Of a stretch of 64,000 bases of DNA, positions 11,777-32,528 are shown one piece after another. The position numbers and the translations under genes are program-made. This DNA comes from Botryllus schlosseri (lineage: Eukaryota): positions 29,886,001-29,950,000 of the forward strand of contig CM119372.1 in assembly GCA_051294905.1 (NCBI GenBank). Direction: 5' to 3'. The first letter of the stretch is position 1, and the number at the start of each line of letters is the position of its first letter. The notes beneath the pieces are model-generated. The model was given only the letters and a program-made list of their open reading frames with translations. It made no database searches and had not been told where the DNA came from.

Positions 11777-12202
11777 TACGTAGAATAACCACAATATGGC
11801 ATTCAATTGATTTCAGCAGTGCCTTTTGATATGTCCCATGATGCTGAATTTTCTATATCAGCAATATTCACAGCCACCACGTAACAGGCAGTTACAGCAT
11901 TCACATCAGCTCCATTGCAGTATGAAGATTTTGGAACTAGTGAAGTATATGCCCGCTTACCCGTGTGTATGCTTGACGTCATTCATCACGATTCCCCATG
12001 ATCATTTAATTCAATTTCCTTATTCTATCACTTAATCTCTTTTTTCTTCTTGTTCTCTCGTTTTTCTCGCACGAGTCAAAAAATGCTGACTCAGCATTTT
12101 TTCTCGTTACGAGGTTTCAGTTTTGTCCGTTTGCTCTTATTATATGAATTTGGCCCGTTTGCCCATACTATTTCGCATATTTACACTCTGCCAAAAACAG
12201 CT

Positions 12203-12700
12203 TTACATCTTTTGTATGACTGTGGGTGGTATAGGGCCTTCGCACAATACCACTTCTTGCACGTTAGATTGCAACAATACAAGCCCCTTATTCCTTATAT
12301 CTGCTGCTTTCATGTAAATTACCACATTTCGTTTTTTGCTTTTCTTCGTTAACGTTTTGCTCAAATGAATGAATCTTCTGTTCATCCGTTCAATGCCTGC
12401 GGACATTATCTGTCTGGCATTGTTTTCGGTCGTCATGTGGTACAACACCTCGTTACCTTCATATTTACAGTACGGAGGGGGCGTCCCTTTTGTATGTCCA
12501 TGGGCGGCCGCCAGACCATATTCCGAGGTTATTGCTCTGTCGCACCTTTGCATGACGCTCTGTATTTCGTCCCTTTCCATTTGTTCCCCAGTTTTCTTTT
12601 TGAAGAGACCGCAAATATCTTCCCAGGGATGAAACCCGTCCACCGAGTTGTCACAAAGTTCATGGCGGCAATGAGACATCAGCATCTGCTGTATTTTTTC
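12203..12700 (-). CDS. TRPT1: Tpt1/KptA (NAD+-dependent RNA 2'-phosphotransferase) homologous domain fused in frame to RNase H
   Basis: Co-linear motifs LMSHCRH (LSxxLRH), DGFHP, EIQSVMQRCDR (KxR), AAHGH (AxQGHS), LYHMT (LYHGT), GIERMNRRFIHLS (GLxxMxRxHVHLS), VIY, QSN...VVLCEGPIPP; ~165 aa. Confidence 0.8.
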   Translation of the reverse strand, partial: EKIQQMLMSHCRHELCDNSVDGFHPWEDICGLFKKKTGEQMERDEIQSVMQRCDRAITSEYGLAAAHGHTKGTPPPYCKYEGNEVLYHMTTENNARQIMSAGIERMNRRFIHLSKTLTKKSKKRNVVIYMKAADIRNKGLVLLQSNVQEVVLCEGPIPPTVIQKM

Positions 12701-15700
12701 CGGTCGGGGTCTTTTCTGTCGGTACGAACCGCTCTTTTCCTTGGGAATTGTCGCCCAAACATGTGGGTCCTCTTCTCCCGCAGTCATTTCCATCCAATAA
12801 GATCGAGGCAATCCATCTGACGTAAATACCTGCATCGTACCTAAATGAATTACCTCTTTTATTTGGAATCCTGCGAGATGATTGAGCCACCTCTGAATCA
12901 GGGGTTTTGGGCTTGGATTTTTTGCTTTATCCGTCATTCTTTTGAGGAGCCCAAATACCCCAGTATTATCAGTGATTATTGTAAAGGATAAGGCTCTCAA
13001 CATTGACTGCCATTTTTCAACCGAATCCTTTAAGGCTTTCAATTCCTTTGTACACGGATCATAAGCTTTTGCCGTTGGAGTCGCCCACTTCTGACTGTAA
13101 TAAGCAATTGGGTAAACCTTTTCGAAAGGTGGTTTACACCCCTTTTCCGTCTGAAAAATGATTGATCCAAACCCAATATCTGAAGCGTCTGTTTCCACAA
13201 AAATGGGAAGATTTGGGTCCAGATGGTACAAAACCTTAGCATCATCGAGGGCTGCTTGTGCTGTTTTGAAATCCTGCAGTAATTCGTTGGTCCATAGCAC
13301 AGGCGTCGCTCGTCCTTGTGTCGCAGGAACCTTACCTGTCAGCGCATCAAATTTGGCCAGCTTCAAACTTAGCTCAGGAATATGTTCCGAGATATAGCGA
13401 AGGGCACCGATCCACCCCCGCAGCTCGTATACATTATGGGGTGGTGAGAGTTCTCGTAAAGCCCTTATTATTTCGGGCTGAACCTCTATTTCTTTCCCCG
13501 TCAAGGTTGCCCCCAAAAGGTTCACCCTTCGTTTTCCAATGAAACATTTATTGATGCTAACCGTTAGTTTCATTTTGGCAAGCTGTTCAAATACCATGTG
13601 TAGCAGCAGTAAGTGGTCTTCTACAGTTTTTGTGCTGAGAAAAATATCGTCTATGTAGGCCTCCATAGGCGTTGCATTTTCCTCATCTGTCCTGCCAACT
13701 TGCTTCATGTGTTGTTGGTGTTTTTCCGTGATAGGTTTCACCACGCATTCCTGCATATTCGCGCTCCAAAGGGCTACAGCTGTTTTAAGCCCCATCGGCA
13801 TTTTACGCCATCTTACATGCATCCCTTTGATGGCTATACCCACATATTGTTTAGATCTTTCCGTTACGTCCATGTGGAAATAGGCTTTTTTCAAATCTAG
13901 GAGGGAAAGCACTTCTCTGCCTTGGGCGAGCTGCTTTACGTCTGGTACAAGAGGCGGAGGTACTTCTATTGATTTTATGGCCGCATTAAGAGGTTGAAGG
14001 TTCTGTACCACCCTTCATGCTTGCTTCCATCCGTCTTCTTGTTTCTGTCTTTCATTCATTTTCTGAGGGACAACAAAGATAGCCAATTTCCATTCGGCAA
14101 AACCTCGTTCGATAACGCCCAAGTCCAGGAAGTTGTCTACTGCTTCTTTCAATGCTTTCGCCTGGCCCTCCCCCTTCAAATTATAAGGCCCAGACACAAA
14201 TGGTTTCGTCGAAGGATCCTTAAGCTCGATGTCGCATTTGTACTTCATGGTTTGTAGAGCGCCAAGGTGGCCCCGTAGGTCCTCGAGTTCAGACGCAAAC
14301 GGTGCGTAAATGGCTTTCCAGACATCATCAGCGATAATGGTATTTTCTGGAGTCGTCAGATCAGGAGGTTTGTATGGGAGTTTGGCCAGCGCTACCGATT
14401 GTGCGCAGAGATTTTCGAGCTCCGTCTTGACGCGCGGGTGAGTGTCCTTCTGTAAAACATACGTAGTAACTGGCCCAGCCATAGGCTGGTTTGAGATTCG
14501 TGATGACCGAGTTGTCGGTGTTGGTGGAGAGAGAGTGAGGTCCTTCGATGTAGGCCTCTGATCTCGGCGCGTGCCCGCACCTACCGTCACGCCGACGGAT
14601 TCCATTTCCGCCGGGAACCCTTTTTCTGGGGAGACGTGCATCTTAAAATCCCCAGACTCCTTGTCGAACATGTCCGGACGAGTATCCAGTTGACCGGCAA
14701 TTGCTGCTTCATTTGAACCTTTTGGGAAAGTATTCATTACTGTGGCTGTCGTCATGCATCTATGGGCCGATTCATCAAGGTTATTCGGACAAGTGCATCC
14801 ACGAAGGCACTTAGGACCAGTTTTCTCGTGCAGATGCATTTTCGCCAGCGGACATTCCACTCTGGATGTCAGCTGTAACAGTCGCTATGCATCTATGGGC
14901 CGGATTTCTATCATTATCCGGACAAGTGCATCCGCGAGAGTTTTCGGGACCAGTTTTCTCGTGCAGGTCCATCTTTACGCCTGCGGGGATTCCACGCTCG
15001 ACGTCTTCATTAACGGTGTCAGCAGGCATTCCTGTCTCAACACCAATAGTTTCCCATGGGTTATGTGTGACGTTAGTTGTTAATTTCAACTCGTCGCTCG
15101 CACCAGTGGTTTTTTCCATCTCGGTACTCGCGCCAGCGGCAATTTTCCGCTCCACGCTACCTTGGTTTGCAGCATCCATCAACCCATCGTCGGTTACAGT
15201 GTAGCTAATACTGCTTCCGACTTTGGTTCCGTTCCTTTGATCACCCTGATTCTCATCAAGTAGTGATACTAATGACAACTCCTCATTTGCGTTAGACGGG
15301 GTTTTGAATTCCGTGGTTATGCCCGGTAATTGTTGGACTTCCTCAATCCATTTCAGCCCTATGATATTAAGTGGGACTCCTGATCCGGTCACAAATGGAA
15401 CGGACAACCCATCAATATTAATCTCAACGAAGGAGTCCACTTGGGACGAGCCCCCTATTCCAGTCAATTCCATGTCTATTGGTTGACGTTCTTCCCAGCT
15501 TTGTGGGTATTTAGTAACAACGACCTTTTTCATTATCAAATTGGGGATGCTCCCCGTGTCAGCTAGGAATTTCGTGCCAGTTGCTGTATCAATCAAATAC
15601 AACAATTGGCCTCCAAACAATTCCGTAAAGTCGGGCTGTAGAGGGTCATCCGGCATATCAAGAAATGTAAATAAGGGTAAAGAAGAGTTATGTACAGTTT

Positions 15701-15726
15701 TTATATGTTTAAGTATTAAATTGTCT

Positions 15727-15770
15727 GGGAGCTGATTCACCGGATCAATCAGCACCCCAAGGCGTTTTTT
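15727..15770 (-). promoter_or_regulatory. -1 programmed ribosomal frameshift signal (gag to pol)
   Basis: Slippery A_AAA_AAC (15770-15764) in the gag frame, followed about 5 nt later by stem GGGGTGCTGATT...AATCAGCTCCC; the -1 frame is the protease ORF. Confidence 0.7.
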
Positions 15771-17242
15771 GAAAGTCGTACACCTTGATTTAGTTCCTCG
15801 TCCGTCCAATATGAAGCATCATATCGACGCGGGCGATCATGATATTGAGGTTTCGCCCAGGCCACTTGGGTATTTCCCCCAGATGGACGTGCAGGTGGTC
15901 CATGAGGACCCCATTGATCCCTATCTCGATTTTTTGGCCTGGTATCATAATAGGCTTCGCACAAAGCGGTTCTTTGTGTAAACGAGGGAGAACCTTGAGA
16001 AGCAAGATATCGGTCAAGACCTTCAATTGTAAGTATGTTATTTCTTGCAAGGAACGGTTTCCAGTTTCGTTCAGCAGACTCTTTAACATGAGGGGGTACA
16101 GGTCGTGCTCGCCCACGAATTACCCACCCTAATTCCTCATCTTTGGCAAGGACCTTATCGTTTAGCCACAGTATGAATTTAGCCACGCAATTTCGGGATT
16201 GATGTCCTGGTGCCTTACAGTAATAACAGACGGACAGGGATTGTCCCTGGGTGGGATTTAGATACAAACCTAGAGGAGCGAAAATATTTGGATTTCCAAG
16301 AAAATTGTATCGCTCACCTTGACTATAAGCAATGTTGCGGGCTTCCTGGCTGCTGGACGGCGTAATTTGTGAGCTGTCTGCACCCATCCCGGAGTCTTGC
16401 GTATTCGCCATTCGCGGACTTCGGTTCGAGGTTCCCGGTCCTGGGCTAGCACGTGGAGATCATGTTATTCTCGTTGGCTGTCCGTTAGGTCTCGTTGATG
16501 CCGTACGCCCATTCTGTTGTTGTACTGGCCTGGCCCTCGAGCCTTGTCCTCGCCTACCAGGTCCATTACCGTTCACGATGCGGGTAGGGGATCGATTGGT
16601 GCGCACTGTACGTTGAAGGTTACGACGTGGTTGCGGTTCCTGGCCTGCATTGGCAAGCTGACGCGGTGAGATCCCCCTAGATGGCCCAGGAGATGTTGCC
16701 CCCCCCCCAAAGTTATTCATTGGTTGCAGGGGCGAGGGTGATTGTACCACCGGCGGTGGTGTTACGCCAGGTGAAGGAGGGGTGTTGAGCTGACTGTCCT
16801 CGCTACCATGAGTGGGATAACTCTGCATTATTTGCCCTGCAGGTTGAACATTATAAATGTGTACTGGCGGCAAGGACGGTTTTGTATCACGCCCTTCCTT
16901 TGTTTCCTGATACCTGGGGCGCGTCTCTTGTTCGTCCAGAAACTCGGAGCTCCAAACAAGTTGTAGTTCCTCCGCAACATCCCGCCATCTTTTCTCCTCT
17001 TCTCATCCTCGTAACATCAATCTAAGCGCTTCTGGTAGTCGCTGTCGTAGATTTCGGAAAAGACGTAATTCGTCAGGATTATTTTTAATTTTACTATCCA
17101 TGTCTATTTCCAGTTGCTTCAAAGCGCTATTCAGGAGAGGTAGCGGCTCATCCTCCCAGCGATAATTTCTGCGGAAATCCCCAATGATCTTTTCGTCATT
17201 TACCAAACCCTGGGGATTGGATAAGGAAAGAGATCGCATCAC
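15749..17242 (-). pseudogene. gag: gag-like protein with one CCHC zinc knuckle
   Basis: ORFs 17242-17003, 16873-16460 and 16411-15749 share one frame, separated by two TGA stops; CYYCKAPGHQSRNC; Pro/Gln/Arg-rich middle. Confidence 0.8.
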
Positions 17243-17459
17243 CGATTCCCACTCTGCTTCCCCCGAATTGGTATTAAAAAATTTCCCAGCTGGGTAGCCT
17301 GTTTGTGTCGACCAGCAGCCCTCAATTTCTTCTGTAATGCATTAGCCAAAATAACATCAGTTTCATCTATATCCTACGACGCATTTTCTCGAGTGGGATG
17401 TTATAGGAAGCAAGACGAATCATTGTAAAAGTGTTGAAACTTAATTACATATGTAATTC

Positions 17460-18620
17460 CATCACTAAAGTTGATCACGCATAGGTACGTGCTACGCTCC
17501 CGCAAACAGATTCACGCGAAGTTGGTATAGAACTGCGCTAGTTTTAAAGGTGTTACATCATGAAATGTCTGACGAAATTTGGTATGGTGCATTGTTATTA
17601 TGTCCTACAACCGCGTATCAACGTTCAAGGTGAGAATTTAATGTTTAGCGTGCTAATTCTGTTATTAAAATTGACTATGTATGGGTATATGCTATGTTCA
17701 CGAAAAACAGATATGCGTAAAAGTTGGTATTCGACTGCGATAGTTTCAAAGGTGTTCCATCATTACATGTGTGATGAAATTTAGCATGGTGAATTGCCAT
17801 AATGTCCTATAACTACGTATCAAGTTTCGAGTTGGGATTCAATGTTAAGCATGGTAATTCCGTTATTAAAGTTGGCTATGTATGGGTAGGCTACGTGCTA
17901 TACGCTCCCACAAAACATATGTACGCAAAAAGTCGATGTAGAGCCGCGTTAGTTTTAAAGTTGTTCCATCATGAAATGTGTGATGGGATTTGGTATGGTG
18001 CATTGTTATAATCTCCTATAACCGCGTACCAACTTTCAAGGTGGGAATTCAATGTTTAACACGGTAATTCTGCTATTAAAATTGACTATGTATAGGTATA
18101 TGCTATGTTCACGCAAAACAGATATGCGTAAAAGTCGGTATTCGACTGCGTTAGTTTTAAAGGTGTTCCATCATTAGATGTGTGATGAAATTTAGCATGG
18201 TGCATTGCCATAATGTTCTACAACTACGTATCAAGTTTCGAGTTGGGATTCAATGTTAAGCATGGTAATTCCGTTGTTAAAGTTAACTATGTATAGGTAC
18301 GTGCTATACGCCCCCACGCAAAACAGATGTACGCAAAAAGTCGATGTAGAACCGCGTTAGTTTTAAAGTTGTTCCATTATGAAATGCGCGAGGAAATTTG
18401 GTATGCTGCATAATCACAATGTCCTACAACTACGTACCAAGTTTCAAGGTGAGGAGTCACATATTAGCATGATAATTCTGTTATTAAATCTGACTATGTA
18501 TATGTACACGCTGCCGAAAACAGATTCAGGCAAAAGTTGCTATAGAACTGCGTTAGTTTTAAAGTTGTTCCATCATGAAATGTGTGATGAAATTTGGTAT
18601 GCAGCATAATCACAATGCCC
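17460..18620 (+). repeat. ~203-bp tandem satellite array 1
   Basis: GAAATTT(G/A)G(T/C)ATGGTGCATT-like motif recurring at ~17574, 17776, 17985, 18187, 18393, 18589. Confidence 0.9.
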
Positions 18621-19034
18621 TGGAGCTCATTTAGATACGTTTTTTTAATTTAGTTATACATTCTAGTTGTTTTGATGTTAGGAGAAAATCATTCGATAAC
18701 TCGATACAGCTACTTTAACACGCGTTGATGTAACTTTCCTCATTTGTATGCATGCATAGCCTACGCGAAATTGGTTAGCGAATTTTTCGATTAGTTTATA
18801 TTCCGTCTTTTATTTAAAACTGAAACTGTTAAGTATTACTTAAAGTGTTATAAAATGTGAAAAAGTGTACAAGTAGAATTATTATTATGTCATGAACAAG
18901 TAGTTTACAAATTCATACGATTTCTCTTGTTGCGTTCCGGGATATAATGTAATTTTTCGCTCTTTTTATTTTTTATTTTTTCAATAAAATTAGTATTCAT
19001 TTTACAAAAAACGTCGTGTAAAGATAAAGTACTT

Positions 19035-19995
19035 GCAAAATTTGACATGGTGCATTGTCATAATGTCTTACAACTGCGTACCGAGTTTCAAGGTAGGGAG
19101 TCGAATATTAACATGGTAATTCCGTTAATAAAATTGACTATGTTTAGGTACGTGCTACGCTACGGAAAAACAGATTTAGCCAAAAGTCTGTATAGAACTG
19201 CGTTGGTTTTGAAGGTGTTACATCATGAAATGTCTGACGAAATTTGGTATGGTGCATTGTTATTATGTCCTACAACTGCGTACCAACGTTCAAGGTGAGA
19301 ATTTAATGTTTAGCATGCTAATTCTGTTATTAAAATTGACTATGTATGGGTATATGCTATGTTCACGAAAAACAGATATGCGTAAAAGTCGGTATTCGAC
19401 TGCGATAGTTTCAAAGGTGTTCCATCATTAGATGTGTGATGAAATTTAGCTTGGTGCATAGCCATAATGCCCTACAACTACGTATCAAGTTTAGAGTTGG
19501 GATTCAATGCATGGTAATTCCGTTATTAAAGTTGGCTATGTATGGGTACGTGCTATACGCTCCCGCAAAACAGATGTACGCAAAAAGTTGATGTAGAATC
19601 GCGTTAGTTTTAAAGTTGTTCCATCATGAAATGTCTGATGGGATTTGGTATGGTGCATTTTTATAATGTCCTATAACCGCGTACCAACTTTCAAGATGGG
19701 AATTCAATGTTTAACACGGTAATTCTGCTATTAAAATTGACTATGTATAGGTATATGCTAAGTTCACGCAAACAGATACGCGTAAAAGTCGGTATTCGAC
19801 TGCGTTAGTTTTAAAGGTGTTCCATCATTAGATGTGTGATGAAATTTAGCATGGTGCATTGCCATAATGTCCTACATCTACGTATCAAGTTTAGAGTTGG
19901 GATTCAATGTTAAGCATGGTAATTCAGTTATTAAAGTTGACTATGTATAGGTACGTGCTATACGCTCCCGCAAAAACAGATGCACGCAAAAACCG
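19035..19995 (+). repeat. ~203-bp tandem satellite array 2
   Basis: Same unit at ~19037, 19239, 19441, 19640, 19841. Confidence 0.9.
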
Positions 19996-20084
19996 AATTT
20001 TTCGATTAGTTTATATTCCGTATTTTATTTAAAACTAAAACTGTTAAGTACTACTTAAGGTGTTATAAAATGTGAAAAAGTGCA

Positions 20085-20364
20085 AATAGCGGAGACGTTT
20101 GGAGACTGCGTTTAGGACAGTTCGATGTCGCTCGAATATTTCATCCAAAATTGAGAGTATCTGGAAAACTTTTGGATATGTGAGGTCACAAACATAATAG
20201 AGAAGATCCAGCACCATCTCAAATGGTGTCGCTTCATTGTGAGACGATCCCTTTATGCGGAAGCCATTCGCCACGATCCATGACTGCAGGTCGCCATTTT
20301 CATGGTGCGCTAGTATGAGATGTCGAGGACTCAGCTTTGTGGCCGTTAATTGGACTGAATAGGC
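20085..20364 (-). pseudogene. isolated exon fragment, possibly C-terminus of a CACTA/EnSpm-associated (SAMD3-like) ORF
   Basis: Polypyrimidine-CAG acceptor at 20365-20366, open frame containing FEMVLDLLYYVCDLTYPK (resembles the YYVFNLxYP motif). Confidence 0.3.
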
Positions 20365-20440
20365 CTGGAATTGAAAGAAATATGTTAAGTAAAATTATAT
20401 TGCCAATAATCCATGTGCGAATTGAAAGCACAATATTTGG

Positions 20441-20850
20441 CAATGAAAAATAGCAAATTTGCTCTCTCAAGCATTGGCCATCGTTTTGTTTTTGAAAGAT
20501 GTCGCAATGTGGGTATAATATTTTCTAAAACTCAAACTAGGACGAAATCATGAATGTGTGGGACTTATGATAAACATATATTGTGCGCATACAAATTTGT
20601 TACAAGAACTATGATATTACTGTATTTGCACGAATTACAAATGCGCTATCGTAAATTAGTATATGCTACACAATTTCGCGGTCCAGAATGACTTATGGCC
20701 ATGAAAAAATAGCGAAAAATTTGAATCCAAAAAATCCTAATCCCCATAAGACGTACTGGGTGTGGGGTTCGAACCCACGTGAACACCTGTTCATTGAAGC
20801 TTAAGTTCAACGCCTTAACCACTCGACCAACCCAGTTCCATTGTAACGAT
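20441..20850 (+). repeat. duplicated block containing tRNA-Leu (partner at ~27685-28108)
   Basis: Shared CAATGAAAAATAGCAAA...AAACTCAAACTAGGACGAAATCATGAATG...CCCAGTTCCATTGTAACGAT. Confidence 0.75.
20754..20836 (-). tRNA. trnL-UAA: tRNA-Leu(UAA)
   Basis: Full cloverleaf: acceptor ACTGGGT/ACCCAGT+A, anticodon arm TTGAA-CTTAAGC-TTCAA, long variable arm GAACA/TGTTC, T arm GTGGG-TTCGAAC-CCCAC; T6 run ~20 nt downstream. Confidence 0.92.
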
Positions 20851-20964
20851 TTTTCGAATCGTGGGTATAAATAATTTTTAAAAAACCCAAATATGCCGCA
20901 TCCAAACTTCGTACATTTTTTAGATTAGTTTTTTCGTTTCTATATGCTTTAAAAGACTCATTCA

Positions 20965-21014
20965 GACCTCGAACCTACGTGAACACTTGTTCATTTGAAC
21001 TTAAGTCCAACGCC
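20965..21014 (-). pseudogene. partial tRNA-Leu(UAA) copy
   Basis: TCGAACCTACGTGAACACTTGTTCATTTGAACTTAAGTCCAACGCC matches the middle of the tRNA at 20754. Confidence 0.7.
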
Positions 21015-21124
21015 AAAAGCTCTACTTTACAAAATTTTCGGAGTACCGACTTTTTTTGGGTAAATTCTGTGATGCGCTTAATTACTAACTATGAAAGCAA
21101 GCAGTGTTTGGGGTATTTGATCAA

Positions 21125-21372
21125 CATGGAAATTCGTCCACTTTGCTTTTAGGTTATGCTGAAAACATGAGTTACTTAACAACATTTCGACTCATAGGTG
21201 TGGATAATTTAAAGTACATAGTATTAAAGTCATTAATGCATCGGTCGCATGGAAATTCGTCCACTTTGCTTTTAGGTTATGCTGAAAACATGAGTTACTT
21301 AACAACATTTCGACTCATAGGTGTGGATAATTTAAAGTACATAGTATTAAAGTCATTAATGCATCGGTCGCA
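21125..21372 (+). repeat. perfect 123-bp tandem duplication
   Basis: CATGGAAATTCGTCCAC... begins at 21125 and 21248; explains the repeated peptide in ORF 21104-21478. Confidence 0.9.
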
Positions 21373-21416
21373 AATAAATCATCAGTTGCACTGCAAGTTG
21401 AACATAAGTCGTACGG

Positions 21417-21704
21417 ATGGCACTAAAAATAACTGTGTATCGTTTTGCACGCACACATACTGCGGTGTTGCGATATAGTCCTGATACGATTGTCCAAGTT
21501 CTGAAAGCTGGAAAAGATACTCTCATATTATTTGATTGCGATTTCAATCCCACAGAATCTCAAGTTATTCGTACTCAATGGAATGGTACCTCTATCATAG
21601 ATGTAGAGGGAAAAGAGATCTTCCGATTTGTTGGTATCGTTAATATTCAACGCAAATCGGGCTTCATGATTGTGCGGGGGATCCCATTGTTGAATTTGAA
21701 TTGA
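21417..21704 (+). CDS. 95-aa orphan protein, family A copy 1
   Basis: Intact ATG ORF, near-identical to 29760-30047 and gaplessly alignable with 41716-41441. Confidence 0.65.
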   Translation: MALKITVYRFARTHTAVLRYSPDTIVQVLKAGKDTLILFDCDFNPTESQVIRTQWNGTSIIDVEGKEIFRFVGIVNIQRKSGFMIVRGIPLLNLN

Positions 21705-24700
21705 TCAGCGTGTCGCTGTACATGATGCACTATATCGAAAGCATTAATGCTAGTTGAATATTGTCGAATGGTTGTCTGTAATGTTAGTTGCATACAAGAG
21801 TCTCGGTGATCTAAGCTCAAGATTTACGTACGCATGGTTGATTTGTTTCCATAGCCCCGACATTGGGGATCACTTGTATGGGTCTAAAGAAAATAAGTCG
21901 TAAAATGTGTAAACTGTAGAAAGCGTAACTGCGAAGTTTAGATTAATGAAAAATATAGTGATTGAAAATAGATCACCGGATTATAGTTTACAGAAAACTC
22001 CACAATTCTATGTGACGTCCTTACATGCTAACAACCTTCGAACTATTCGCCGCCTCATAAACACTTGAGTAGGCCTACATTTAATGCGTGTGGAGAAAAC
22101 CTAGCTAAATTTTCATATGCATTTAGTTTCCAGCTCTGAAAGCAAGCTTGGTCCATGATCAATAGCAACTTTTGCGTAAACTCCGCTCTATTTCACTTCA
22201 TACCTACACAAGTCTATTCGAATAATTCGATGTATAATTGAACTTTACTCTGCATGATCATTAGGGCTTCTATTTTTTGTTGCAGGGCAACTTTGTTGTA
22301 GCCGAAAGTGGTATTATCTAGCAACAAGGTTTAAATGACTCGCCTCCGGCGTTTATTGACCGTATTAGCCGTATTCTCGTCATGCAAAAATTATGCATGT
22401 ATTAGTACGAAGCTCAGATGCAGCAAAGTGTGTGAGACTGCCTGTGCGTTGTTGTTCCTAATCCCGACCTTCCGCTCGTATCGTATATACTACAAGCCAG
22501 TGATCGCTACATCAACAAGAATCGAGCGAAAGCGCTGTTTCACGCCGTCTTGCATCGGTCACGATTAGTTTTACTTTTCAACTAACTTGTTGTCTGTCGT
22601 TATATTCATTAGACTCGCTTTCATGCGGCTAATTTGTCCCTATCATTATAACGTCGGTGATCGCGTACCTGCGGCAAAGGTGTTCGTTTAATTATAGCAA
22701 CGAGAACCGGCTCCCTGCGGCTATTCCGTTGGCATTTTAGTGGCGAGTTAAATACCCTTATACTCGACATGCAAACATTATACAGGTAGCGGTTATACTG
22801 CGAGCTGATGAATTCGTCATCTATTCGCCTAGCGTAGTTGTTCATAATCCCGACCTTCCGCTCGTATCGTATATACTACAAGCCAGTGATCGCTACATCA
22901 AACAAAACGGTCAGATCGAACGCAAGAACTCGGATCGCAGTGTCGGACGCCAGCAAAGCGGTGTACCTCGAAACATCAACCGATCTGGAGGATTTCAGCT
23001 AGTGAATCGACGCAATAACGATCAACGATATCATTGATATGCTCTTTTTTCGAAATAAAATGAACTCGTACACTAAACAATGCTATTTCAAGGAGACTGA
23101 GTAAAGTGCCAATGTAAGTTTTGAGCGCGCGGGAATGTTTTTATGCCTATACAACTAAACGAATACCCATCGGCCTGCTTACTACATTTTAAAGATTCTC
23201 TTCACTATTGTGTATACAAGAATATACTTCTCTTAGTAAGCAATTTCTCGTGAATTCCGAAGCACATTGACGCGTGTTAACTTCTATATTAGGTGATAGT
23301 ATCATTTTCATGTCTGATAATGTTACTTGTCAAGGTGATACAATCGTAAGCTCAAACTACTTTAAAATTTAAAGTCTTACCAAATTTTATCTAAAACTGT
23401 CGAGTACCGATAAAGTACTCTAAAACCTAGTCACTTTTTACGTGGAGGGAGAACATAGCGAAGTACTTGTACATGTTGCAGTAGGCCTACTCAAGTATAG
23501 GTTTGGCCTGCTTGCGCTATACTTAATGAAGTGATTACCTATTTACACTGCATCTACTTCGATTTCAGAGTTTTTCGCTTTTTCCAGCAAACTTTACCTT
23601 CAATACTTACTTTTCAACTAACTGGGAAATCATTACTTCTTGTACTTTAGTAGGACTTTACTGCTACAATGTACTTTTTTCAGTGGACCAGCGGTCTTGG
23701 TGAGTGTTGTCAGTTTCATCTATATCCTACGAAAAGCTACTTGAGTACTTCACGGGTTCGTATCATCGCAAATAATATATTCTAAACATGTTTAGATAGC
23801 GAGGAGTTGTAATTATAGGTGAAAGGGATAAATTTTATCTAAAACTGAAACTGTAAAGTACCGATAAAGTGGTCTAGAGTATTTTTTATGTTTATTCAAC
23901 TCAACGAATATCTTCATTTGGCCTGCTTACTACATTTTAAAGATTTTCTACGCTAGAAAAATCGCTGTAACATGATAAGTATATTATAATTAATCTTATC
24001 AGCGCGGCATAGTACATTCGAGTAAATTCATTAAATTAGCTTATGTTTATGAAATTATTTGGTTTCTGAATTCTATCTAAACTGAAACCGACGAGTATCG
24101 GTAAAAGCACTTATTACGTGCAGGGAGGCGATAGCGAAGTACTCGTGCATTTTGTACTACTCAAGTATAGGTTTTATCTGCTTGCGCTAAACTTAATCAA
24201 GTGATTAACTATTTACACTGCATCTACTTCTATTTCAGAGTATTCGGTTTTCAGCTAAACTATACCTGCAATACTTTTTAACTCACTCAGAAATCATCAC
24301 GTCTTGAACTTTACTAGAAATTTACTGCTACTAAATGTTGAAACGTACTGTTTTCAGCGGTCTTGATGAGTGGTGCTAGTTTCATCTATATCCTACGACG
24401 CATTTTCGCGCTGCAGAATGACTTATCGCAATAAAAATAACAAAAATACTTCGAGAATTTGCGAACTCTCACTGCGCAATATTTGAGTTTACGAAGTAAC
24501 CTTCAAAGTGAGCCTACATCTTGGATGTTATCCAAAACCACATACAATTTCGCTTCGAATGAGGTATCCTTTAAAATAAGGTAGAAGTAGTCATTTCCGA
24601 GTAAGTAAAACGTTAGTACTCTAGGTATATTACTGTTTAATACTCTAGCTATCATGAAGTTGATGTACTCCAATATCATAAGGACTTGAGACTATGTGCT

Positions 24701-25738
24701 GCATCTAGGCAAAAAAAAAAAACCTACTTGGGTATTCTCAAGAAGTATGAGTGCTCAAGTATAAGTTTTCAAACCATTACCTTGACAAAATTTTCAGAAT
24801 AGCAACTTTTGCGTAAAGTCTGTCTTGCATTTAGTTGCCGTTGCAATTTAGCGACCTTAGGTCGTGAGTAAAGCTAGAATTCATAGACTAACATCCATCT
24901 CAAATCCGAAGTGCATACCCGCGCGGAGTAATTATAACCAAATTTAGTCAAATTTGACCTGCAATGTATTCTGGGTAACCCTAACAATTTCCTTACGTAG
25001 CTGTAGAAATTTGAAAAATTAAGTTACAAACGCGGTATCGTAAATTAGTATATATTACTAAAATACAAACTCGTACGAAATCATGAATTTTTCAACTGCG
25101 TGCCTTTTCTCGCATGTGTGGCTTATCCCTTGAAAAGAATGTGAATCCAAAGTGCATGTACGGATGGTAAGCAGCGTGAAATTAGACCCAACTGAAAATA
25201 TCTTGAGGACATGCTACTACAAATATGATGTTTATGCTACTTATACTTGACAATCTTCATTTAAACCAACTCATGAATACTTACATTTTGCTTACTTGAG
25301 AATCACGACTTCCACTTGCAGTCGAGTATAAATTTATGGATGCGTCTTCTACTTGAGTATCTATGAGTTTTCGTTTAGGAAAAACTAAAGCTAGTAGCCT
25401 CTATCTAACTTTATCAGCTGTTGGGGTATTAGCGAGAATCCAATATAAACATGACGCTTTGGAACGTCGCTATGGTTGGTGTTATCGCGAATTAGCTATT
25501 CTCAATGAGGTTCTAATTGGCTACGTAAGGTTAACGAAAGGTTGAGTTGTCTTCGCGGAGCTATATTATCCTTGATAGGTGGTAAGAGTATTCTGATTTA
25601 ATGTTGGTAGAGTTTTTTGTTTATCTGTTTAGTTTTTTCGACATCGTAAGAATGATTGATCTCTATTTAGGTGAAATCTTAGTGCTCGCAAAGAATTAGA
25701 CATACATTTATTGGGAGGGTTCTGGAAATAGTTGCGGA

Positions 25739-26434
25739 TTGCCTCGAGGATGGTTAGAAAAAAATATATTCAGAATATATATTATGGTGAATGTTTTTCG
25801 TTATGTATCGTATCGTATCAGAGAAATGCCTCAGCAGGTGAAAAGACGATTAACTGTACAGAATATGGTGGAGCTTCTATTAAGACATGAAGATGAGAAT
25901 CTAACTGATCCGAATACCTGGCGAAATATATTATCTGACTATCGTTCGTATTCAAATTCACTCTCGAAGAAGCGTAAAGAAGATGATATCAAATTTCTCA
26001 AGCGATTTCTTGCGCGTTATGAGATTCAAATTCTCATGGGAATGGCGGTGTTTCATGGAATATCAACAAGTCTTGTAGATGAAACTGATATAGTTTCTGT
26101 CTACTATCGATCTGAGCTCACCAGAGAAGAGTGGAGCGTAATGCTGAACTCATTTCATTCGAAAAATTGTTTGAGATGGGAGGGTATTTTATGTAGGAAG
26201 CTACTGATGTATAAGAGTTGCTGCTCGTTCTTCTTCGAGGCCGTTGAATATAATGGTTTCGTTGAGCGATTACCAATTTTCCAGATTCGTGGCTACTGTA
26301 GATCTATTGGGTGTCATGTGAAATTTCACTTAATTTCACCATATAACAGCAAGCGAAATGTCCTCATAAAAGTGAATGAAACTATGATTGATTGTGAACG
26401 AATTTATCCGGAAATTAAACGTGAAACTGAATGA
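25739..26434 (+). CDS. hypothetical protein; C-terminal W...CC.F...GYC...C..F pattern reminiscent of NOF-FB/MULE transposon N-terminal domains
   Basis: Longest ORF (231 aa) in an AT-rich repeat zone; family resemblance is from memory only. Confidence 0.35.
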   Translation: MPRGWLEKNIFRIYIMVNVFRYVSYRIREMPQQVKRRLTVQNMVELLLRHEDENLTDPNTWRNILSDYRSYSNSLSKKRKEDDIKFLKRFLARYEIQILMGMAVFHGISTSLVDETDIVSVYYRSELTREEWSVMLNSFHSKNCLRWEGILCRKLLMYKSCCSFFFEAVEYNGFVERLPIFQIRGYCRSIGCHVKFHLISPYNSKRNVLIKVNETMIDCERIYPEIKRETE

Positions 26435-26729
26435 ATTCGACGTTAAGGGTAATATGCAAATTGTACCAATTTCGTTTCCCAAAATTAGCGCCGAGAGTAG
26501 ATGAATTTAATGTTTACTCTACGCAAATGGTAATGATTCGTATAATTAATGATGTATTATCACATATTACGAATATAAAAATCATTCTGGAAATGTGTTT
26601 ATTGCTCTGAACAGGTGATTGGTGATATATTTCGAGCGATAGGGCTATGCGAGAGTTATTTAGCGAGATGAAAGTGATTGCAAATTCTACTCAGTAACTA
26701 TTTTAGTTAGAAATCGAGAACACAGGGTT

Positions 26730-27262
26730 ATCGACTTTTACGTATATCTGTTTTGCGTGAACATAGCATATACCTATACATAGTCAATTTCAATAGCAGA
26801 ATTAGCGTGTTAAACATTGAATTCCCACCTTTAAAGTTGGTACGCGGTTATAGGACATTATAAAATGCACCATACCAAATCCCATCACACATTTCATGAT
26901 GGAACAACTTTAAAACTAACGCGGCTCTACATCGGCTTTTTGCGTACATCTGTTTGTGGGAGCGTATAGCACGTACCCATACATAGCCGACTTTAATAAC
27001 GGAATTACCATGCTTAACATTGAATACCAACTCTAAACTTGATACGTAGTTGTAGAGCCTTATGACAATGCACCATGCTAAATTTCATCACACACATCTA
27101 ATGATGGAACACCTTTGAAACTATCGCAGTCGAATACCGACTTTTAGGCATATCTGATTTTCGTGAACATAGCATATACCCATACATAGTCAATTTCAAT
27201 AACAGAATTAGCATGCTAAACATTAAATTCTCACCTTGAACGTTAGTACACAGTTGTAGGAC
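26730..27262 (-). repeat. inverted copy of the ~203-bp satellite
   Basis: Reverse complement of arrays 1 and 2 (AATGCACCATACCAAAT, AATGCACCATGCTAAATTTC). Confidence 0.85.
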
Positions 27263-28011
27263 AAGATGATATTCCTGTACTTGCACTTCGAAATGATTTA
27301 CTGACTGTTGGCCCCTCGCCAAAATTTCGGGCTTTAGGAGTCAAATTGTCTTTCTTATGGTAAATTAACGTAGGGAGAATTAATCAGAAAATTTTGTAGG
27401 GTATAGACCTACTCTATACTGTAGGCATTGATACATTTAACGCATGAGCCGTCGAGTTCGTACATGATAAAATTCCTGGTCAAGGAATATGCTTCGGATA
27501 TAATTTCATCCTTTTCTTCAGTGATCGAAGGTGCTGATACTCGTGATAATTCCATGGTTTGAGGAGAATAGCGAGTCAAAGCTTATTTCGAGATCTAAGC
27601 TACTTTGAAAATGAGGATCCTAGGATTTGCTTAATTTTCATCTATATCGTTCAATGCGTTTTCGCGTTCCAGAATGACTTATGTCAATGAAAAATAGCAA
27701 AAATGATCTCTCGACCATTGATCATGGTTTTGTTTTTAAAAGATGCCGCGATGTCGGTATAATATTTTATAAAACTCAAACTAGGACGAAATCATGAATG
27801 TGTAGGACTTATGATTAAGATATATTGTGCGCAGACAACTTTCTTACAAGAACTATGATATTCCTGTACTTGCACGAATTACAAATGCGGTATTGTAAAT
27901 TAGTATATAGCCTACTACACAAAATCCGGAGTCTAAAAGTTTTTATTACAGTTGAGAAAAAGTACTCGATACGCTATATTTGAATCTAAAAATGTTAATC
28001 CCCGTAAAACG

Positions 28012-28094
28012 TACTGGCTGTGGGGTTCGAAGCCACGTGAACACCTGTTCATTGAAACTCAAGTCCAATGCCTTTACCGCTCGCTCAACCCAGT
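28012..28094 (-). pseudogene. degenerate tRNA-Leu copy
   Basis: Aligns end to end with 20754-20836 but has mismatches in the acceptor, D, anticodon and T stems; a further fragment lies at ~28213-28237. Confidence 0.75.
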
Positions 28095-29759: not shown

Positions 29760-30047
29760 ATGGCGCTAAAAATAACTGTGTATCGTTTTGTACGCGCACA
29801 TACTGCGGTGTTGCGATATAGTCCTGACACGATTGTCCAAGTTCTGAAAGCTGGAAAAGATACTCTCATATTATTTGATTGCGATTTCGATCCCACAGAA
29901 TCTCAAGTTATTCGTGGTCAATGGAATGGTACCTCTATTATAGATGTAGAGGGAAAAGAGATCTTCCGATTTGTAGGTATCGTTAATATTCAGCGCAAAT
30001 CGGGCTTCATAATTGTGCGGGGGATCCCATTGTTGAATTTGAATTGA
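29760..30047 (+). CDS. 95-aa orphan protein, family A copy 2
   Basis: Within a ~545-bp duplication (21375-21921 / 29718-30265); frame intact. Confidence 0.65.
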   Translation: MALKITVYRFVRAHTAVLRYSPDTIVQVLKAGKDTLILFDCDFDPTESQVIRGQWNGTSIIDVEGKEIFRFVGIVNIQRKSGFIIVRGIPLLNLN

Positions 30048-32202: not shown

Positions 32203-32210
32203 AGCCCTTC

Positions 32211-32480
32211 CTATTGACTGGAGGAAGTACTGTTGACGGAAGGTAGTAAATCAGGTGAAGATATGTTGAAATAGACTATAGATCCTAGCGGCGTATTTGT
32301 GGGTTGGACGTAAGCAGTAGATTCGCTGCTATTGGATCCCAAAAATAAGTTCAACAAATTAGAAAATGCTCCAGGCGACACGTGCAGATAATCTGCTGCC
32401 AATATAATCAGAAGAGATACAGACGATGAAAGCAAGGATACGACAAGTACAAGTTTTACGATGGTCGTCTTAGAAAGCAT
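32211..32480 (-). CDS. pre-gag small ORF with signal/TM anchor and N-glycosylation sequons
   Basis: MLSKTTIVKLVLVVSLLSSSVSLLIILAA hydrophobic N-terminus; NSS, NIS, NST sequons; lies between the PBS and gag. Confidence 0.45.
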   Translation of the reverse strand: MLSKTTIVKLVLVVSLLSSSVSLLIILAADYLHVSPGAFSNLLNLFLGSNSSESTAYVQPTNTPLGSIVYFNISSPDLLPSVNSTSSSQ

Positions 32481-32510
32481 CGATTGGTCAACGTCTGAAC
32501 ACCGGAAGTT

Positions 32511-32528
32511 TCCCCGTACTGGCCACCA
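32511..32528 (-). promoter_or_regulatory. primer-binding site complementary to tRNA-Ile(AAU)
   Basis: Minus strand TGGTGGCCAGTACGGGGA; plus strand equals the tRNA-Ile 3' end TCCCCGTACTGGCCACCA. Confidence 0.8.

What the first reader, a model, noticed from the sequence alone, without database searches (positions are those of the whole stretch)
12203..14011. Retroelement Pol ends in a complete Tpt1/KptA RNA 2'-phosphotransferase domain instead of an integrase
Seen: RT (YIDD) and RNase H run in frame, through a ~35-aa linker, into ~165 aa bearing Tpt1 motifs in the correct order (SHCRH, DGF, CDR, AHGH, LYHMT, MNRRFIHLS, VVL..PIPP), then a stop; no DDE integrase follows. Known: Tpt1 uses NAD+ to remove the 2'-phosphate from RNA splice junctions, has an Arg-His-Arg-Arg catalytic tetrad, and some members ADP-ribose-cap 5'-phosphorylated DNA/RNA ends. 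All four tetrad residues have plausible counterparts (RH of CRH, R of CDR, R of MNR), though HGT is HMT and IRAxQGH is LAAAHGH. Inference: an undescribed PR-RT-RH-Tpt1 lineage that might cap or protect cDNA ends, repair primer tRNA or genomic RNA, or counter host defence. I know of no described retroelement with this fusion, and this copy is itself decayed.
Basis: partly seen in the sequence, partly recalled or inferred. Interest (0 to 1): 0.92.

Follow-up and report, generated by a model that had tools for sequence, protein, structure and literature searches.

The report
Retrovirus-like polymerase fused to Tpt1 enzyme
A family of giant virus-like retroelements in this animal-type genome carries a complete, conserved RNA 2'-phosphotransferase (Tpt1) domain on the end of its reverse transcriptase, a fusion I could not find described and which points to an unknown RNA-processing step in retroelement replication.

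Summary
Window 12203-14014 (minus strand) is a 603-aa frame reading RT - RNase H - linker - Tpt1/KptA. Pfam PF01885 scores E 6e-11, 43 bits against a cut-off of 26. An AlphaFold model matches only Tpt1/KptA structures. All four catalytic tetrad residues and the NAD+ contacts are kept.

It is not a one-off. The genome holds 135 matches, and 52 end open frames of 1000 aa or more, in lineages down to about 33% identity. dN/dS is about 0.13-0.22. RT-RH-Tpt1 proteins also occur in other public assemblies, and all of them form one clade.

The window copy is broken by stops, frameshifts and nested insertions. It is the 3' module of a repeated unit of at least 38 kb, with no LTRs, no retroviral integrase and no inverted ends found. 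The unit also carries two IS1595-type DDE genes, an env-like gene, LRR, IAP and E2 genes. A DNA copy of the host spliced leader lies before gag.

Most likely function (inferred, about 45%): NAD+-dependent removal of RNA 2'-phosphates that would stall reverse transcription. The main rival is ADP-ribose capping of nucleic-acid ends. Four full-text searches found no description of this fusion.

The parts
12206..12706 (-). Tpt1/KptA-like domain at the C-terminus of Pol (both lobes; the Pfam-matched part is 12236-12640)
   Evidence: PF01885 at E 6.2e-11, 43.1 bits against a cut-off of 26. PDB sequence hits are all Tpt1. The AF2 model of the 91%-identical L031 domain has pLDDT 83.7, and Foldseek ranks 1-22 are all Tpt1/KptA. 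Tetrad R-H-R-R is invariant.
12203..12205 (-). Pol stop codon (TAA)
12707..12865 (-). linker between RNase H and Tpt1 (conserved ...QVFTSDGL.RS.WMEMAAG.DDP..W motif)
   Evidence: Alignments. The same motif is in the outside proteins P0007, P0006, P0034 and P0154.
12866..13294 (-). RNase H with its tether (RT_RNaseH_2 / RT_RNaseH)
13502..14026 (-). reverse transcriptase (YIDD), interrupted by an in-frame stop at 14015-14017
12206..15818 (-). whole Pol (PR - about 350 aa with 45-aa repeats - RT - RH - Tpt1); frameshift near 14820-14836
   Evidence: tblastn of the intact 1205-aa Pol of L031: aa 1-333 and 329-1205 lie in two frames
15333..15575 (-). aspartic protease region (LADTGS)
   Evidence: RVP is weak here (E 0.075). 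RVP scores E 4.8e-5 in sister lineage L038. The DTGS motif is read.
15752..17364 (-). Gag, C-terminal part (zf-CCHC); in-frame stops at 16460-16462 and 17003-17005, frameshift near 17280
31006..32247 (-). Gag, N-terminal part, separated from the rest by a nested insertion
11933..12202 (-). 3' tail. The conserved terminal 22-mer GGGCATATACTTCACTAGTTCC lies at 11933-11954 and the element ends at 11933.
   Evidence: Sharp boundary in 29 of 29 other loci compared. The 22-mer occurs once per copy, 49 hits genome-wide. A related terminus is found in lineage L033/L040.
17359..31004 (.). nested insertion 1 (about 13.6 kb; includes a 200-bp satellite at 17448-20000 and a tRNA at 20754-20836), not part of the element
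32789..32819 (-). DNA copy of the host trans-spliced leader inside the element's leader, upstream of gag
   Evidence: RNA reads made of template-switch oligo + this sequence + diverse continuations. The 24-nt core is conserved across copies and lineages.
32248..33880 (-). non-coding leader between the accessory genes and gag
34495..35023 (-). remnant of the two paralogous ORFs of about 150 aa that follow E2
35024..48558 (.). nested insertion 2 (about 13.5 kb), not part of the element
48558..49034 (-). ubiquitin-conjugating enzyme E2 cargo gene
   Evidence: PF00179 at E 1.5e-46; repeated with the unit
49062..50631 (-). ORF176 and two more members of the 150-aa paralog family (no Pfam match)
50744..51358 (-). 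IAP cargo gene, C-terminal RING part
   Evidence: zf-C3HC4_3 at E 3.6e-10
51400..59400 (.). nested insertion 3 (approximate coordinates): an ordinary Ty3/gypsy with integrase (Pol 51648-55085, minus strand), itself hit by a LINE (55451-58420, plus strand); it splits the IAP gene
59443..60639 (-). IAP cargo gene, three BIR domains
   Evidence: PF00653 at E 6.9e-57, 3 stretches; repeated with the unit
61198..62396 (-). ORF149 and ORF185 (unknown function). Between them, at about 61692-61805, other copies carry a 317-aa IS1595-type DDE gene that is missing here.
62456..62602 (-). 3' end of the LRR cargo gene. The rest lies beyond a nested gypsy and beyond the window.
   Evidence: LRR_8 at E 1.5e-42 in the C1 copy; colinearity
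62615..64000 (-). nested insertion 4: a second copy of the same gypsy family (integrase end plus 3' LTR). The giant unit resumes outside the window.

Best explanation
SHOWN (about 95% sure). The frame is the decayed C-terminal part of the Pol polyprotein of a distinct, deep-branching retrovirus-like element family. Pol reads protease - RT - RNase H - conserved linker - complete two-lobed Tpt1/KptA domain. The domain keeps the Arg-His-Arg-Arg tetrad and the NAD+-binding residues and evolves under purifying selection. It is present in every lineage of the family examined here and in relatives from other assemblies, and it was apparently acquired once. The gag-pol-Tpt1 block is the 3' end of a same-strand unit of at least 38 kb. 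The gene order is DDE - env-like - cargo - LRR - DDE - IAP - E2 - leader carrying a spliced-leader copy - gag - pol. No LTRs, no retroviral integrase and no inverted termini were found.

INFERRED (about 45-50%). Tethered to RT/RNase H in the replication complex, the domain uses NAD+ to remove internal or terminal 2'-phosphates from the element's own RNA template or primer. Such marks are left by 2',3'-cyclic-phosphate/5'-OH type cleavage-and-ligation or by damage, and they impede reverse transcriptase. Removing them lets a very long RNA be copied completely. Integration is probably done by the IS1595-type DDE proteins and not by Tpt1.
For: Domain identity: Pfam PF01885 is above cut-off in the window and in 7 of 8 Pols from different lineages, with the eighth at 23.9 bits. 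All 10 PDB sequence hits are Tpt1. The AF2 model has pLDDT 83.7. Foldseek PDB hits with E<=0.001, 22 of 22, are Tpt1/KptA, with TM up to 0.81.

Catalytic competence: R47, H48, R90 and R143 are invariant in 10 of 10 lineages. H48, R90 and R143 are invariant and R47 nearly so among 19 sequences that include canonical Tpt1s. They map to RslTpt1 R16, H17, R64 and R119 (one search counted out; PMC8464070 and PMC6333775 passages). The NAD+ contacts His99/Thr101, Met117 and Asn163/Val165 have conserved counterparts.

Arg64 is selectively needed for step 2: R64A slows step 1 3-fold and step 2 214-fold (PMC6097658 passages). Its invariance here therefore argues that the full 2'-phosphate removal is selected. 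All tested Tpt1s do the 2'-PO4 reaction and only a subset cap 5'-phosphates (PMC6182162 passages). A 2'-phosphorylated template reduces cDNA synthesis (PMC5824351 passages).

Selection and spread: there are 135 genome matches, and 52 lie in open frames of 1000 aa or more. Median dN/dS for Tpt1 is 0.13-0.22 against 0.04-0.06 for RT-RH. The RT-RH part has only two close relatives among 5.8 billion clusters, P0007 and P0154 (215 members), and both carry PF01885. All other hits are 26% identical or less. All 20 retroelement-linked domains, plus the fragment P0034, sit on one side of a branch with SH-aLRT 94.

RNA passage: a DNA copy of the spliced leader lies in the leader before gag. Cargo genes are single ORFs on the same strand.

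Precedent: Tpt1-fold domains occur in a baculovirus, in giant viruses and inside RNA-virus replicase polyproteins.
Against: No enzymatic activity has been measured. The clade has lost two residues conserved in canonical Tpt1: the Arg of IRAxQGH (Rsl Arg75) and the Lys62 equivalent, which contacts the phosphate in CthTpt1. It has also changed HGT to H(M/V/I/L/A)T. Substrate or chemistry may therefore differ.

No source of 2'-phosphates on the element's RNA is known. No ribozyme or other known RNA family was found in the element at the gathering threshold or at E<=1. I could not test whether the host has a ligase that leaves 2'-phosphates.

The best structural matches are KptA complexes with DNA and 5'-phospho-ADP-ribosylated DNA, which suits the capping rival equally well. 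dN/dS of the Tpt1 domain is 3-4 times that of RT-RH. Transcription of the copy examined is very low, so nothing is known about the protein in vivo.
Confidence: 0.5

Rival explanations
1. The domain works as a one-step NAD+-dependent ADP-ribosyltransferase. It caps 5'-phosphate ends of the element's cDNA or RNA, for example to protect ends from exonucleases, block premature ligation, or mark ends for the DDE transposase.
For: A subset of Tpt1 enzymes ADP-ribosylate RNA or DNA 5'-monophosphate ends (PMC6182162 passages). The top Foldseek matches are TkoKptA bound to DNA/NAD+ and to 5'-p-ADPR-DNA. The domain sits where integrase, a cDNA-end-binding protein, sits in other Pols. The clade-specific loss of the Lys62 and Arg75 equivalents and the HGT to HMT change could reflect a change of substrate.
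Against: Capping needs no step 2, yet the step-2-specific Arg64 equivalent is invariant in all members. All Tpt1s tested keep the 2'-phosphotransferase reaction.
Confidence: 0.25
2. The domain is a counter-defence or host-manipulation enzyme that acts on host or damaged RNAs. It would complete repair of tRNAs or mRNAs cut by host antiviral nucleases, or erase RNA 2'-phosphate marks. It would not act on the element's own replication intermediates.
For: The unit carries other host-manipulating cargo, IAP and E2. Unrelated viruses (a baculovirus, giant viruses, RNA viruses) have independently acquired Tpt1-fold proteins.
Against: Unlike the cargo genes, which vary between lineages, Tpt1 is covalently part of Pol in every lineage and in the outside relatives, and it shares the history of the RT clade. 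That pattern fits a core replication function.
Confidence: 0.12
3. The domain is catalytically inert and serves as a nucleic-acid-binding or structural module. Its winged-helix lobe would, for example, bind cDNA or RNA in place of integrase domains.
For: Some canonical phosphate-contacting residues are lost. dN/dS is higher than for RT-RH.
Against: The four tetrad residues and the NAD+ ribose contacts (His and Thr of HxT), Met117 and the Asn/Val equivalents are conserved across lineages that are only about 33% identical. That is hard to explain without catalysis.
Confidence: 0.05
4. The fusion is a one-off chimera or an assembly or annotation artefact in this decayed copy.
For: The window copy itself is broken and riddled with nested insertions.
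Against: There are 135 matches in the genome, and 52 lie at the end of open frames of 1000 aa or more on many chromosomes with unrelated 3' flanks. The same fusion occurs in independent public assemblies.
Confidence: 0.01

Closest known systems
Cellular Tpt1/KptA/TRPT1 RNA 2'-phosphotransferases (Pfam PF01885; e.g. RslTpt1 7kw8, CthTpt1 6e3a, TkoKptA 9ld6)
   Same: It has the same two-lobed fold, the same Arg-His-Arg-Arg tetrad and the same NAD+ ribose contacts (His/Thr). Its size is close to that of the compact prokaryotic enzymes.
   Different: It is covalently fused behind RT-RNase H in a polyprotein. HGT is replaced by H(M/V/I/L/A)T. The IRAxQGH arginine and the Lys62 equivalent are lost. 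The retroelement-linked domains form their own clade.
Ty3/gypsy-type LTR retrotransposons and errantivirus-like elements with env (Metaviridae)
   Same: It has Gag with a CCHC knuckle, an aspartic protease, RT, RNase H with the RT_RNaseH_2 tether, a gag/pol overlap and an env-like gene in the unit.
   Different: RT-RH is 26% identical or less to any integrase-bearing Pol found. There are no LTRs and no rve integrase. Tpt1 sits at the Pol C-terminus, and IS1595-type DDE genes are present instead of integrase.
Burro giant gypsy-like retrotransposons of planarians (PMC6431247, passages read)
   Same: It is a very large retrovirus-like element carrying env and apoptosis- and ubiquitin-related cargo (BIR and others), all on one strand.
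   Different: Burro has LTRs and PR-RT-RH-IN. No Tpt1 or IS1595 DDE is reported in the passages I read.
Terminons, giant Penelope-like retroelements of rotifers (PMC6431247, passages read)
   Same: As there, a roughly 6-kb RT unit turns out to be the 3'-terminal part of a retroelement of about 40 kb with upstream accessory genes and no LTRs.
   Different: The RT clade is different (Penelope/telomerase-like). Terminons are telomere-associated and have no gag-PR-RH and no Tpt1.
Virus-encoded Tpt1-fold proteins: Neodiprion sertifer NPV 'RNA 2'-phosphotransferase', Bodo saltans virus, and replicase polyproteins of Botrylloides leachii nidovirus and Melipona quadrifasciata virus 1a (BFVD)
   Same: Viruses of invertebrates and protists have recruited the same fold. 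In the two RNA viruses it is embedded in the replicase polyprotein.
   Different: None of them is a reverse-transcribing element. Identity is only 16-20%. The relationship rests on predicted structures only.
IS1595/Merlin DDE transposons
   Same: The unit's DDE ORFs carry the IS1595-type DDE domain (PF12762 at E 4e-13 and 7e-15). By my reading of the sequence they also have an N-terminal Cys-rich ribbon.
   Different: No terminal inverted repeat matching the conserved 3' terminus was found. The DDE genes travel with gag-pol-env in a unit of at least 38 kb.

Membership tests
Tpt1/KptA (PF01885) | Profile match above Pfam's gathering score | tested here: met
   43.1 bits against 26 in the window. 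7 of 8 sister Pols are above the cut-off, and L035 scores 23.9.
Tpt1/KptA (PF01885) | Two-lobed fold: a winged-helix RNA lobe plus an ADP-ribosyltransferase-like NAD+ lobe | tested here: met
   AF2 pLDDT 83.7. 22 of 22 significant PDB matches are Tpt1/KptA, with TM up to 0.81 over about 180 columns.
Tpt1/KptA (PF01885) | Arg-His-Arg-Arg catalytic tetrad (Rsl R16, H17, R64, R119) | tested here: met
   HCRH, CDR and MNR positions are invariant in 10 of 10 lineages. They align to the tetrad (PMC8464070 passages).
Tpt1/KptA (PF01885) | NAD+ contacts (His99/Thr101 of HGT, Met117, Asn163/Val165) | tested here: met
   H123, T125, M141 and N..V185 are conserved. The Gly of HGT is replaced by M/V/I/L/A.
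Tpt1/KptA (PF01885) | NAD+-dependent removal of an internal RNA 2'-phosphate | not testable with these tools
   This needs a biochemical assay or yeast tpt1-delta complementation.
LTR retrotransposon / Metaviridae | Gag, PR, RT and RNase H of the Ty3/gypsy-retrovirus type | tested here: met
LTR retrotransposon / Metaviridae | Long terminal repeats | tested here: not met
   No direct repeats flank gag-pol in 10-kb loci. Head and tail are unrelated. The leader and the 3' 22-mer each occur once per copy. The true 5' end of the giant unit is seen in one copy only.
LTR retrotransposon / Metaviridae | Retroviral-type integrase (rve plus zinc-binding domain) in Pol | tested here: not met
   None is found in 8 of 8 Pols. 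rve is found only in the nested ordinary gypsy.
DIRS/Ngaro tyrosine-recombinase retroelements | Tyrosine recombinase ORF and inverted or split direct terminal repeats | tested here: not met
   No Phage_integrase hit in any ORF scanned. No such repeats were found. About 17 kb of the unit was not read.
IS1595/Merlin DNA transposon | DDE_Tnp_IS1595 transposase | tested here: met
   PF12762 at E 3.6e-13 and 6.9e-15 in L035 and L039. Two paralogs per unit in the window's lineage by six-frame search.
IS1595/Merlin DNA transposon | Terminal inverted repeats and target-site duplication | tested here: inconclusive
   The 3' 22-mer has no inverted partner at 2 mismatches or fewer. The 5' end is known from one copy only. 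No TSD is evident in that copy.

The most novel reading that the evidence does not exclude
These are a previously unrecognised class of giant (at least 38 kb), env-bearing, reverse-transcribing virus-like elements of animals. They dispense with LTRs and retroviral integrase, integrate through IS1595/Merlin-type DDE transposases, and express their same-strand genes by spliced-leader trans-splicing. They need a polymerase-tethered Tpt1 because their replication involves an RNA 2'-phosphate intermediate. The different position of the DDE-env block in different lineages (after pol, or far upstream of gag) would then reflect different linearisation points of a circular or concatemeric intermediate.
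Probability: 0.3. Interest if true: 0.93.

Novelty: new variant of a known kind. Interest (0 to 1): 0.86.

Why it matters
Retroelement polymerases are among the best-studied proteins in biology, and their accessory domains (integrase, dUTPase, chromodomain, G-patch) each revealed a step of the life cycle. A conserved, catalytically intact NAD+-dependent RNA 2'-phosphotransferase fused to RT-RNase H implies a replication step that handles 2'-phosphorylated, or ADP-ribosylated, nucleic acid. No retrovirus or retrotransposon is known to have such a step.

Tpt1's role in animals, where it is not needed for tRNA splicing, is a long-standing open question. A virus-like element that depends on it offers a tractable handle. 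The host element is itself unusual: it lacks LTRs and integrase, is giant, bears DDE, env, IAP and E2 genes, and carries a spliced-leader footprint. It bears on how retroviruses, DNA transposons and cargo-carrying giant elements exchange modules.

Practically, one relative is annotated in NCBI as a cellular 'probable RNA 2'-phosphotransferase'. Such annotations may therefore hide retroelement fragments.

Tried and rejected
1. I first misassigned the third tetrad residue to the IRAxQGH arginine and concluded that the clade was a natural 'step-2-arrest' mutant. Counting the 7kw8 alignment and reading PMC6097658, PMC8464070 and PMC6333775 showed that Arg64 is the KKRF arginine, which the family keeps. 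That reading is withdrawn.

2. I read the window copy as 5'-truncated. It is in fact split by nested insertions.

3. I read the element as a 16-kb unit ending at window about 62602-62614. This was rejected when the DDE, env and upstream-DNA searches showed that the repeated unit continues at least 22 kb further.

4. LTRs and TIRs: none found.

5. The 5' end of the giant unit: in the one copy fetched, another abundant repeat abuts about 270 nt upstream of the first DDE.

6. A word-indexed search for Pol-length proteins with a similar Tpt1 tail found none at E<=0.001 among 175 candidates. The exhaustive HMMER search did find them.

7. Known RNA families and ribozymes in the element: none at gathering score (the only hit is a tRNA inside a nested insertion) and none at E<=1.

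8. No RNA holder was listed by the look-up of sequencing runs.

9. The careful maximum-likelihood search did not finish, so the tree cited is the quick one.

10. Literature: four full-text searches and passages of the giant-transposon review gave no description of an RT-Tpt1 fusion or of a gag-pol-env element with IS1595 DDE genes. Repbase and subscription journals were not searchable. No supplements were consulted.

11. PMC12621583 held nothing on reverse transcription.

12. Earlier scan notes: nothing on this genome.


Full report
**1. The observation**

The minus-strand frame 12203..14014 is open for 603 aa. Pfam finds:
- RVT_1 at aa 28-171.
- RT_RNaseH_2 and RT_RNaseH at aa 241-383.
- PTS_2-RNA (PF01885, Tpt1/KptA) at aa 459-593, with E 6.2e-11 and 43.1 bits against a gathering cut-off of 26, covering profile positions 28-177 of 177.

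The frame ends in TAA at 12203-12205. No integrase domain is present.

**2. Is the Tpt1 domain real and complete?**

A phmmer search of the 91%-identical domain of an intact sister copy (L031) against all PDB sequences returns 10 hits at E<=1, all Tpt1/KptA. An AlphaFold2 model built on a 19-row alignment has mean pLDDT 83.7. Only the 30-residue linker is disordered. In Foldseek against the PDB, all 22 hits with E<=0.001 are Tpt1/KptA chains spanning both lobes. Target-normalised TM is up to 0.81, and the best hits are TkoKptA complexes with DNA and NAD+.

I first misread the catalytic tetrad. Counting out the RslTpt1 (7kw8) alignment shows that Arg64 is the arginine of KKRF and Arg119 that of MSRHHVHLS. 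Passages of PMC8464070 and PMC6333775 give the tetrad as Arg16-His17-Arg64-Arg119 (Cth Arg18-His19-Arg68-Arg121). They are invariant in 10 of 10 lineages that are as little as 33-35% identical. They also align with the tetrad of nine canonical Tpt1s.

The NAD+ contacts named in PMC8464070 (His99/Thr101, Met117, Asn163/Val165) also have conserved counterparts. Three things differ from canonical enzymes, in every retroelement-linked member:
- HGT has become H(M/V/I/L/A)T.
- The arginine of IRAxQGH is lost.
- The Lys62 equivalent is lost.

**3. Not a one-off**

A six-frame search of the window's own 495-Mb genome with the 175-aa tail gives 135 matches, from 100% down to about 31% identity. By my count of the table, 52 lie at the end of open frames of 1000-1324 aa without stops. 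Pols from eight lineages all read (PR)-RT-RH-Tpt1. PF01885 is above the cut-off in 7 of 8 and scores 23.9 bits in L035. One lineage (L038) also has a G-patch.

Nei-Gojobori dN/dS was computed over 35 frames. These include four duplicate pairs. Two rows, L016 and L029, gave meaningless values because their frames are shorter than the 560-aa slice. Median dN/dS is 0.04-0.06 for RT-RH and 0.13-0.22 for Tpt1 across the dS bins. Copies differ mainly at synonymous sites, so the divergence arose in replicating lineages.

An exhaustive HMMER search of 1.84 billion representatives finds 1361 Tpt1-family proteins, 7 of them at E<=1e-30. Among the best hits are RT-RH-Tpt1 fusions from other assemblies: P0007 (1003 aa), P0013, P0015, P0006 and P0011. 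One relative, P0008, is annotated in NCBI as 'probable RNA 2'-phosphotransferase [Styela clava]', and its N-terminus is the Pol linker motif.

Searching with RT-RH alone, the only close relatives among 5.8 billion clusters are P0007 (51% identity) and P0154 (43%, a cluster of 215 members on large contigs). Both carry PF01885. All other hits are integrase-bearing Ty3/gypsy-type Pols at 26% identity or less.

In a quick ML tree of 85 domains, all 20 retroelement-linked rows fall on one side of a branch with SH-aLRT 94. So does P0034, which I had mislabelled and which turns out to be a Pol fragment. The careful search did not finish. One acquisition by one RT clade is the simplest reading.

**4. 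What the element is**

The window holds one copy on the minus strand, interrupted by nested insertions at 17359-31004, 35024-48558, about 51400-59400 (an ordinary gypsy hit by a LINE) and 62615 onward (the same gypsy family).

*The 3' end.* It is sharp. 29 of 29 other loci lose similarity at the same point, after ...GGGCATATACT(G/T)CACTAGTTCC. There is no poly(A), and the flanks are unrelated apart from two duplicated pairs. A lineage only 62% identical ends in the related ...TTCACAAGTTCC. The 22-mer occurs 49 times in the genome, once per copy and always in the Pol orientation.

*Genes upstream of gag.* On the same strand lie a non-coding leader, a family of paralogous 150-aa ORFs, a ubiquitin-conjugating E2 (PF00179, E 1.5e-46), a three-BIR/RING IAP, and two unknown ORFs. 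The 3' end of an LRR gene also lies there (LRR_8, E 1.5e-42 in the C1 copy). All are repeated colinearly at more than 20 loci.

*DDE and env-like genes.* Six-frame searches add three points:
- Most copies have a 317-aa IS1595-type DDE gene between the unknown ORFs. It is missing in the window copy, between about 61692 and 61805.
- Nearly every copy has a second 327-aa DDE gene directly followed by an 877-aa env-like ORF, 16-34 kb upstream on the same strand.
- In one copy the unit runs from C1:15449141 to C1:15487394, so it is at least 38 kb.

The env-like reading rests on sequence features only: many N-x-S/T sites, an RRKR/RSKR site before a hydrophobic stretch, and a C-terminal membrane anchor. 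These ORFs have no Pfam match.

*Other lineages.* In L034, L036, L037 and L033 the DDE-env block lies 3-18 kb upstream of gag. In L035 and L039 it follows Pol directly: in frame after the stop in L035 and with a 46-nt overlap in L039.

*Terminal repeats.* No LTRs or inverted termini were found. The 5' end is seen in only one copy, where another abundant repeat abuts about 270 nt upstream of the first DDE. It remains unresolved.

**5. RNA evidence**

Four RNA-seq runs with the same species label were laid on the intact C1 copy. Depth is only about 0-3.5 over gag, pol and Tpt1. Thousands of reads consist of the template-switch oligo, then L031:114-~144, then many unrelated continuations. That is the signature of a trans-spliced leader on host mRNAs.

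The element therefore carries a DNA copy of the spliced leader about 570 nt upstream of gag. Its 24-nt core is identical in 26 of the 28 hits listed (two carry one change) and in three lineages, while the flanks diverge. This is a footprint of reverse transcription of a trans-spliced RNA. It also suggests how a long same-strand gene array could be expressed.

**6. How it most likely works**

*Shown.* A catalytically intact-looking Tpt1 is a constant part of the replicase of this clade.

[quoted passage not shown] R64A slows step 1 3-fold and step 2 214-fold. PMC6182162 (passages) reports that all Tpt1s tested remove internal 2'-phosphates, while only a subset cap 5'-phosphates in a one-step reaction. 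PMC5824351 (passages) shows that a 2'-phosphorylated template nucleotide reduces cDNA synthesis.

The invariance of the Arg64 equivalent therefore favours genuine 2'-phosphate removal from the element's own RNA, so that RT can copy it (about 45-50%). The rivals are:
- ADP-ribose capping of cDNA or RNA 5'-phosphate ends (about 25%). The DNA-bound KptA structures that best match the model fit this.
- Action on host RNAs as counter-defence (about 12%).
- An inert binding module (about 5%).
- An artefact (about 1%, refuted).

I found no source of 2'-phosphates. No known ribozyme or RNA family was detected, and the host's ligase repertoire could not be searched.

**7. Comparison and novelty**

The domain passes every sequence and structure test for Tpt1/KptA membership. 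Activity is untested. The element shares Gag-PR-RT-RH with Metaviridae but fails the LTR and integrase criteria.

The nearest described analogues are planarian Burro elements (giant, with env and BIR and ubiquitin-related cargo, but with LTRs and IN) and rotifer Terminons (a giant retroelement with the RT unit at the 3' end, but Penelope-like) (PMC6431247 passages).

Tpt1-fold proteins exist in a baculovirus, in giant viruses, and inside the replicase polyproteins of two RNA viruses, one of them a tunicate nidovirus (BFVD). Viral use of the fold therefore has precedent, but none in a reverse-transcribing element.

Four full-text searches found no description of the fusion.

I rate this a new variant of a known kind (a retrovirus-like element with a new replicase domain). 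The architecture as a whole may prove to be categorically new once both ends are defined.

Noticed in passing
window 32789-32819 (-); L031:114-144; L035:331; L037:1562: A DNA copy of what RNA-seq shows to be the host's trans-spliced leader sits in the element's leader about 570 nt before gag. The reads are template-switch oligo + this stretch + diverse mRNAs. The 24-nt core is identical in 26 of the 28 hits listed (two carry one change) and in three lineages, and similarity breakpoints between copies fall 11 nt upstream of it.
   Followed up: partly
window 48558-49034, 50744-51358 + 59443-60639, 62456-62602 (all -): The unit carries single-ORF cargo genes on one strand: a ubiquitin-conjugating E2, a three-BIR/RING IAP (split here by a nested gypsy) and an LRR protein.
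   Followed up: partly
window 49766-50631 and 34495-35023 (-); L053:492-950 and 1077-1565: There are four paralogous ORFs of about 150 aa per unit, sharing a ...Y(E/K)xAK(F/L)xW(F/Y)....HP... motif. They have no Pfam match and their function is unknown.
   Followed up: no
L035:28-354 (G000:C1:24293028-24293354) and its counterparts: A leader block that ends with the spliced-leader copy is 96-98% identical among copies whose neighbouring sequence is only 87-92% identical. Two isolated fragments of just this block exist (C12:13794394, C1:7110498).
   Followed up: partly
G000:C5:27074848-27079312 (coordinates only): This looks like a short derivative of the unit: a DDE gene, an env-like gene, and about 860 nt later the conserved 3' terminal 22-mer, with no gag-pol-Tpt1 match between them.
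   Followed up: no
window 51648-55085 (-), 55451-58420 (+), 62891-64000 (-): Two copies of one ordinary Ty3/gypsy family (PR-RT-RH-IN) have inserted into this single element copy. One of them is itself interrupted by a LINE.
   Followed up: partly
window 17448-20000 and 20754-20836: A tandem satellite of about 200 bp and a tRNA gene (Rfam 55.8 bits) lie inside the 13.6-kb insertion that splits gag.
   Followed up: no
L038 (G000:C3:28672001-28682000), Pol aa 367-410: The most divergent lineage has a G-patch domain (E 5.7e-13) between protease and RT. By my recall this is also the case in betaretroviruses. It also has its own 933-aa env-like ORF.
   Followed up: no
P0015 / P0153 (outside proteins): In these gene models an RT-RH-Tpt1 frame runs into an Exo_endo_phos (LINE-type endonuclease) domain partway through Tpt1. 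This is probably a LINE insertion merged into the model.
   Followed up: no
BFVD hits A0A650BL21_4 and A0A4D6NVE0_1: Predicted Tpt1-fold domains occur inside the replicase polyproteins of Botrylloides leachii nidovirus and Melipona quadrifasciata virus 1a. I did not check whether this is described in print.
   Followed up: no
window 11504-11589 and 8377-9223: A 43-nt tandem duplication lies just outside the element's 3' end, and a set of inverted repeats (96-nt arms, 83% complementary) lies further out. They are probably other small mobile elements.
   Followed up: no
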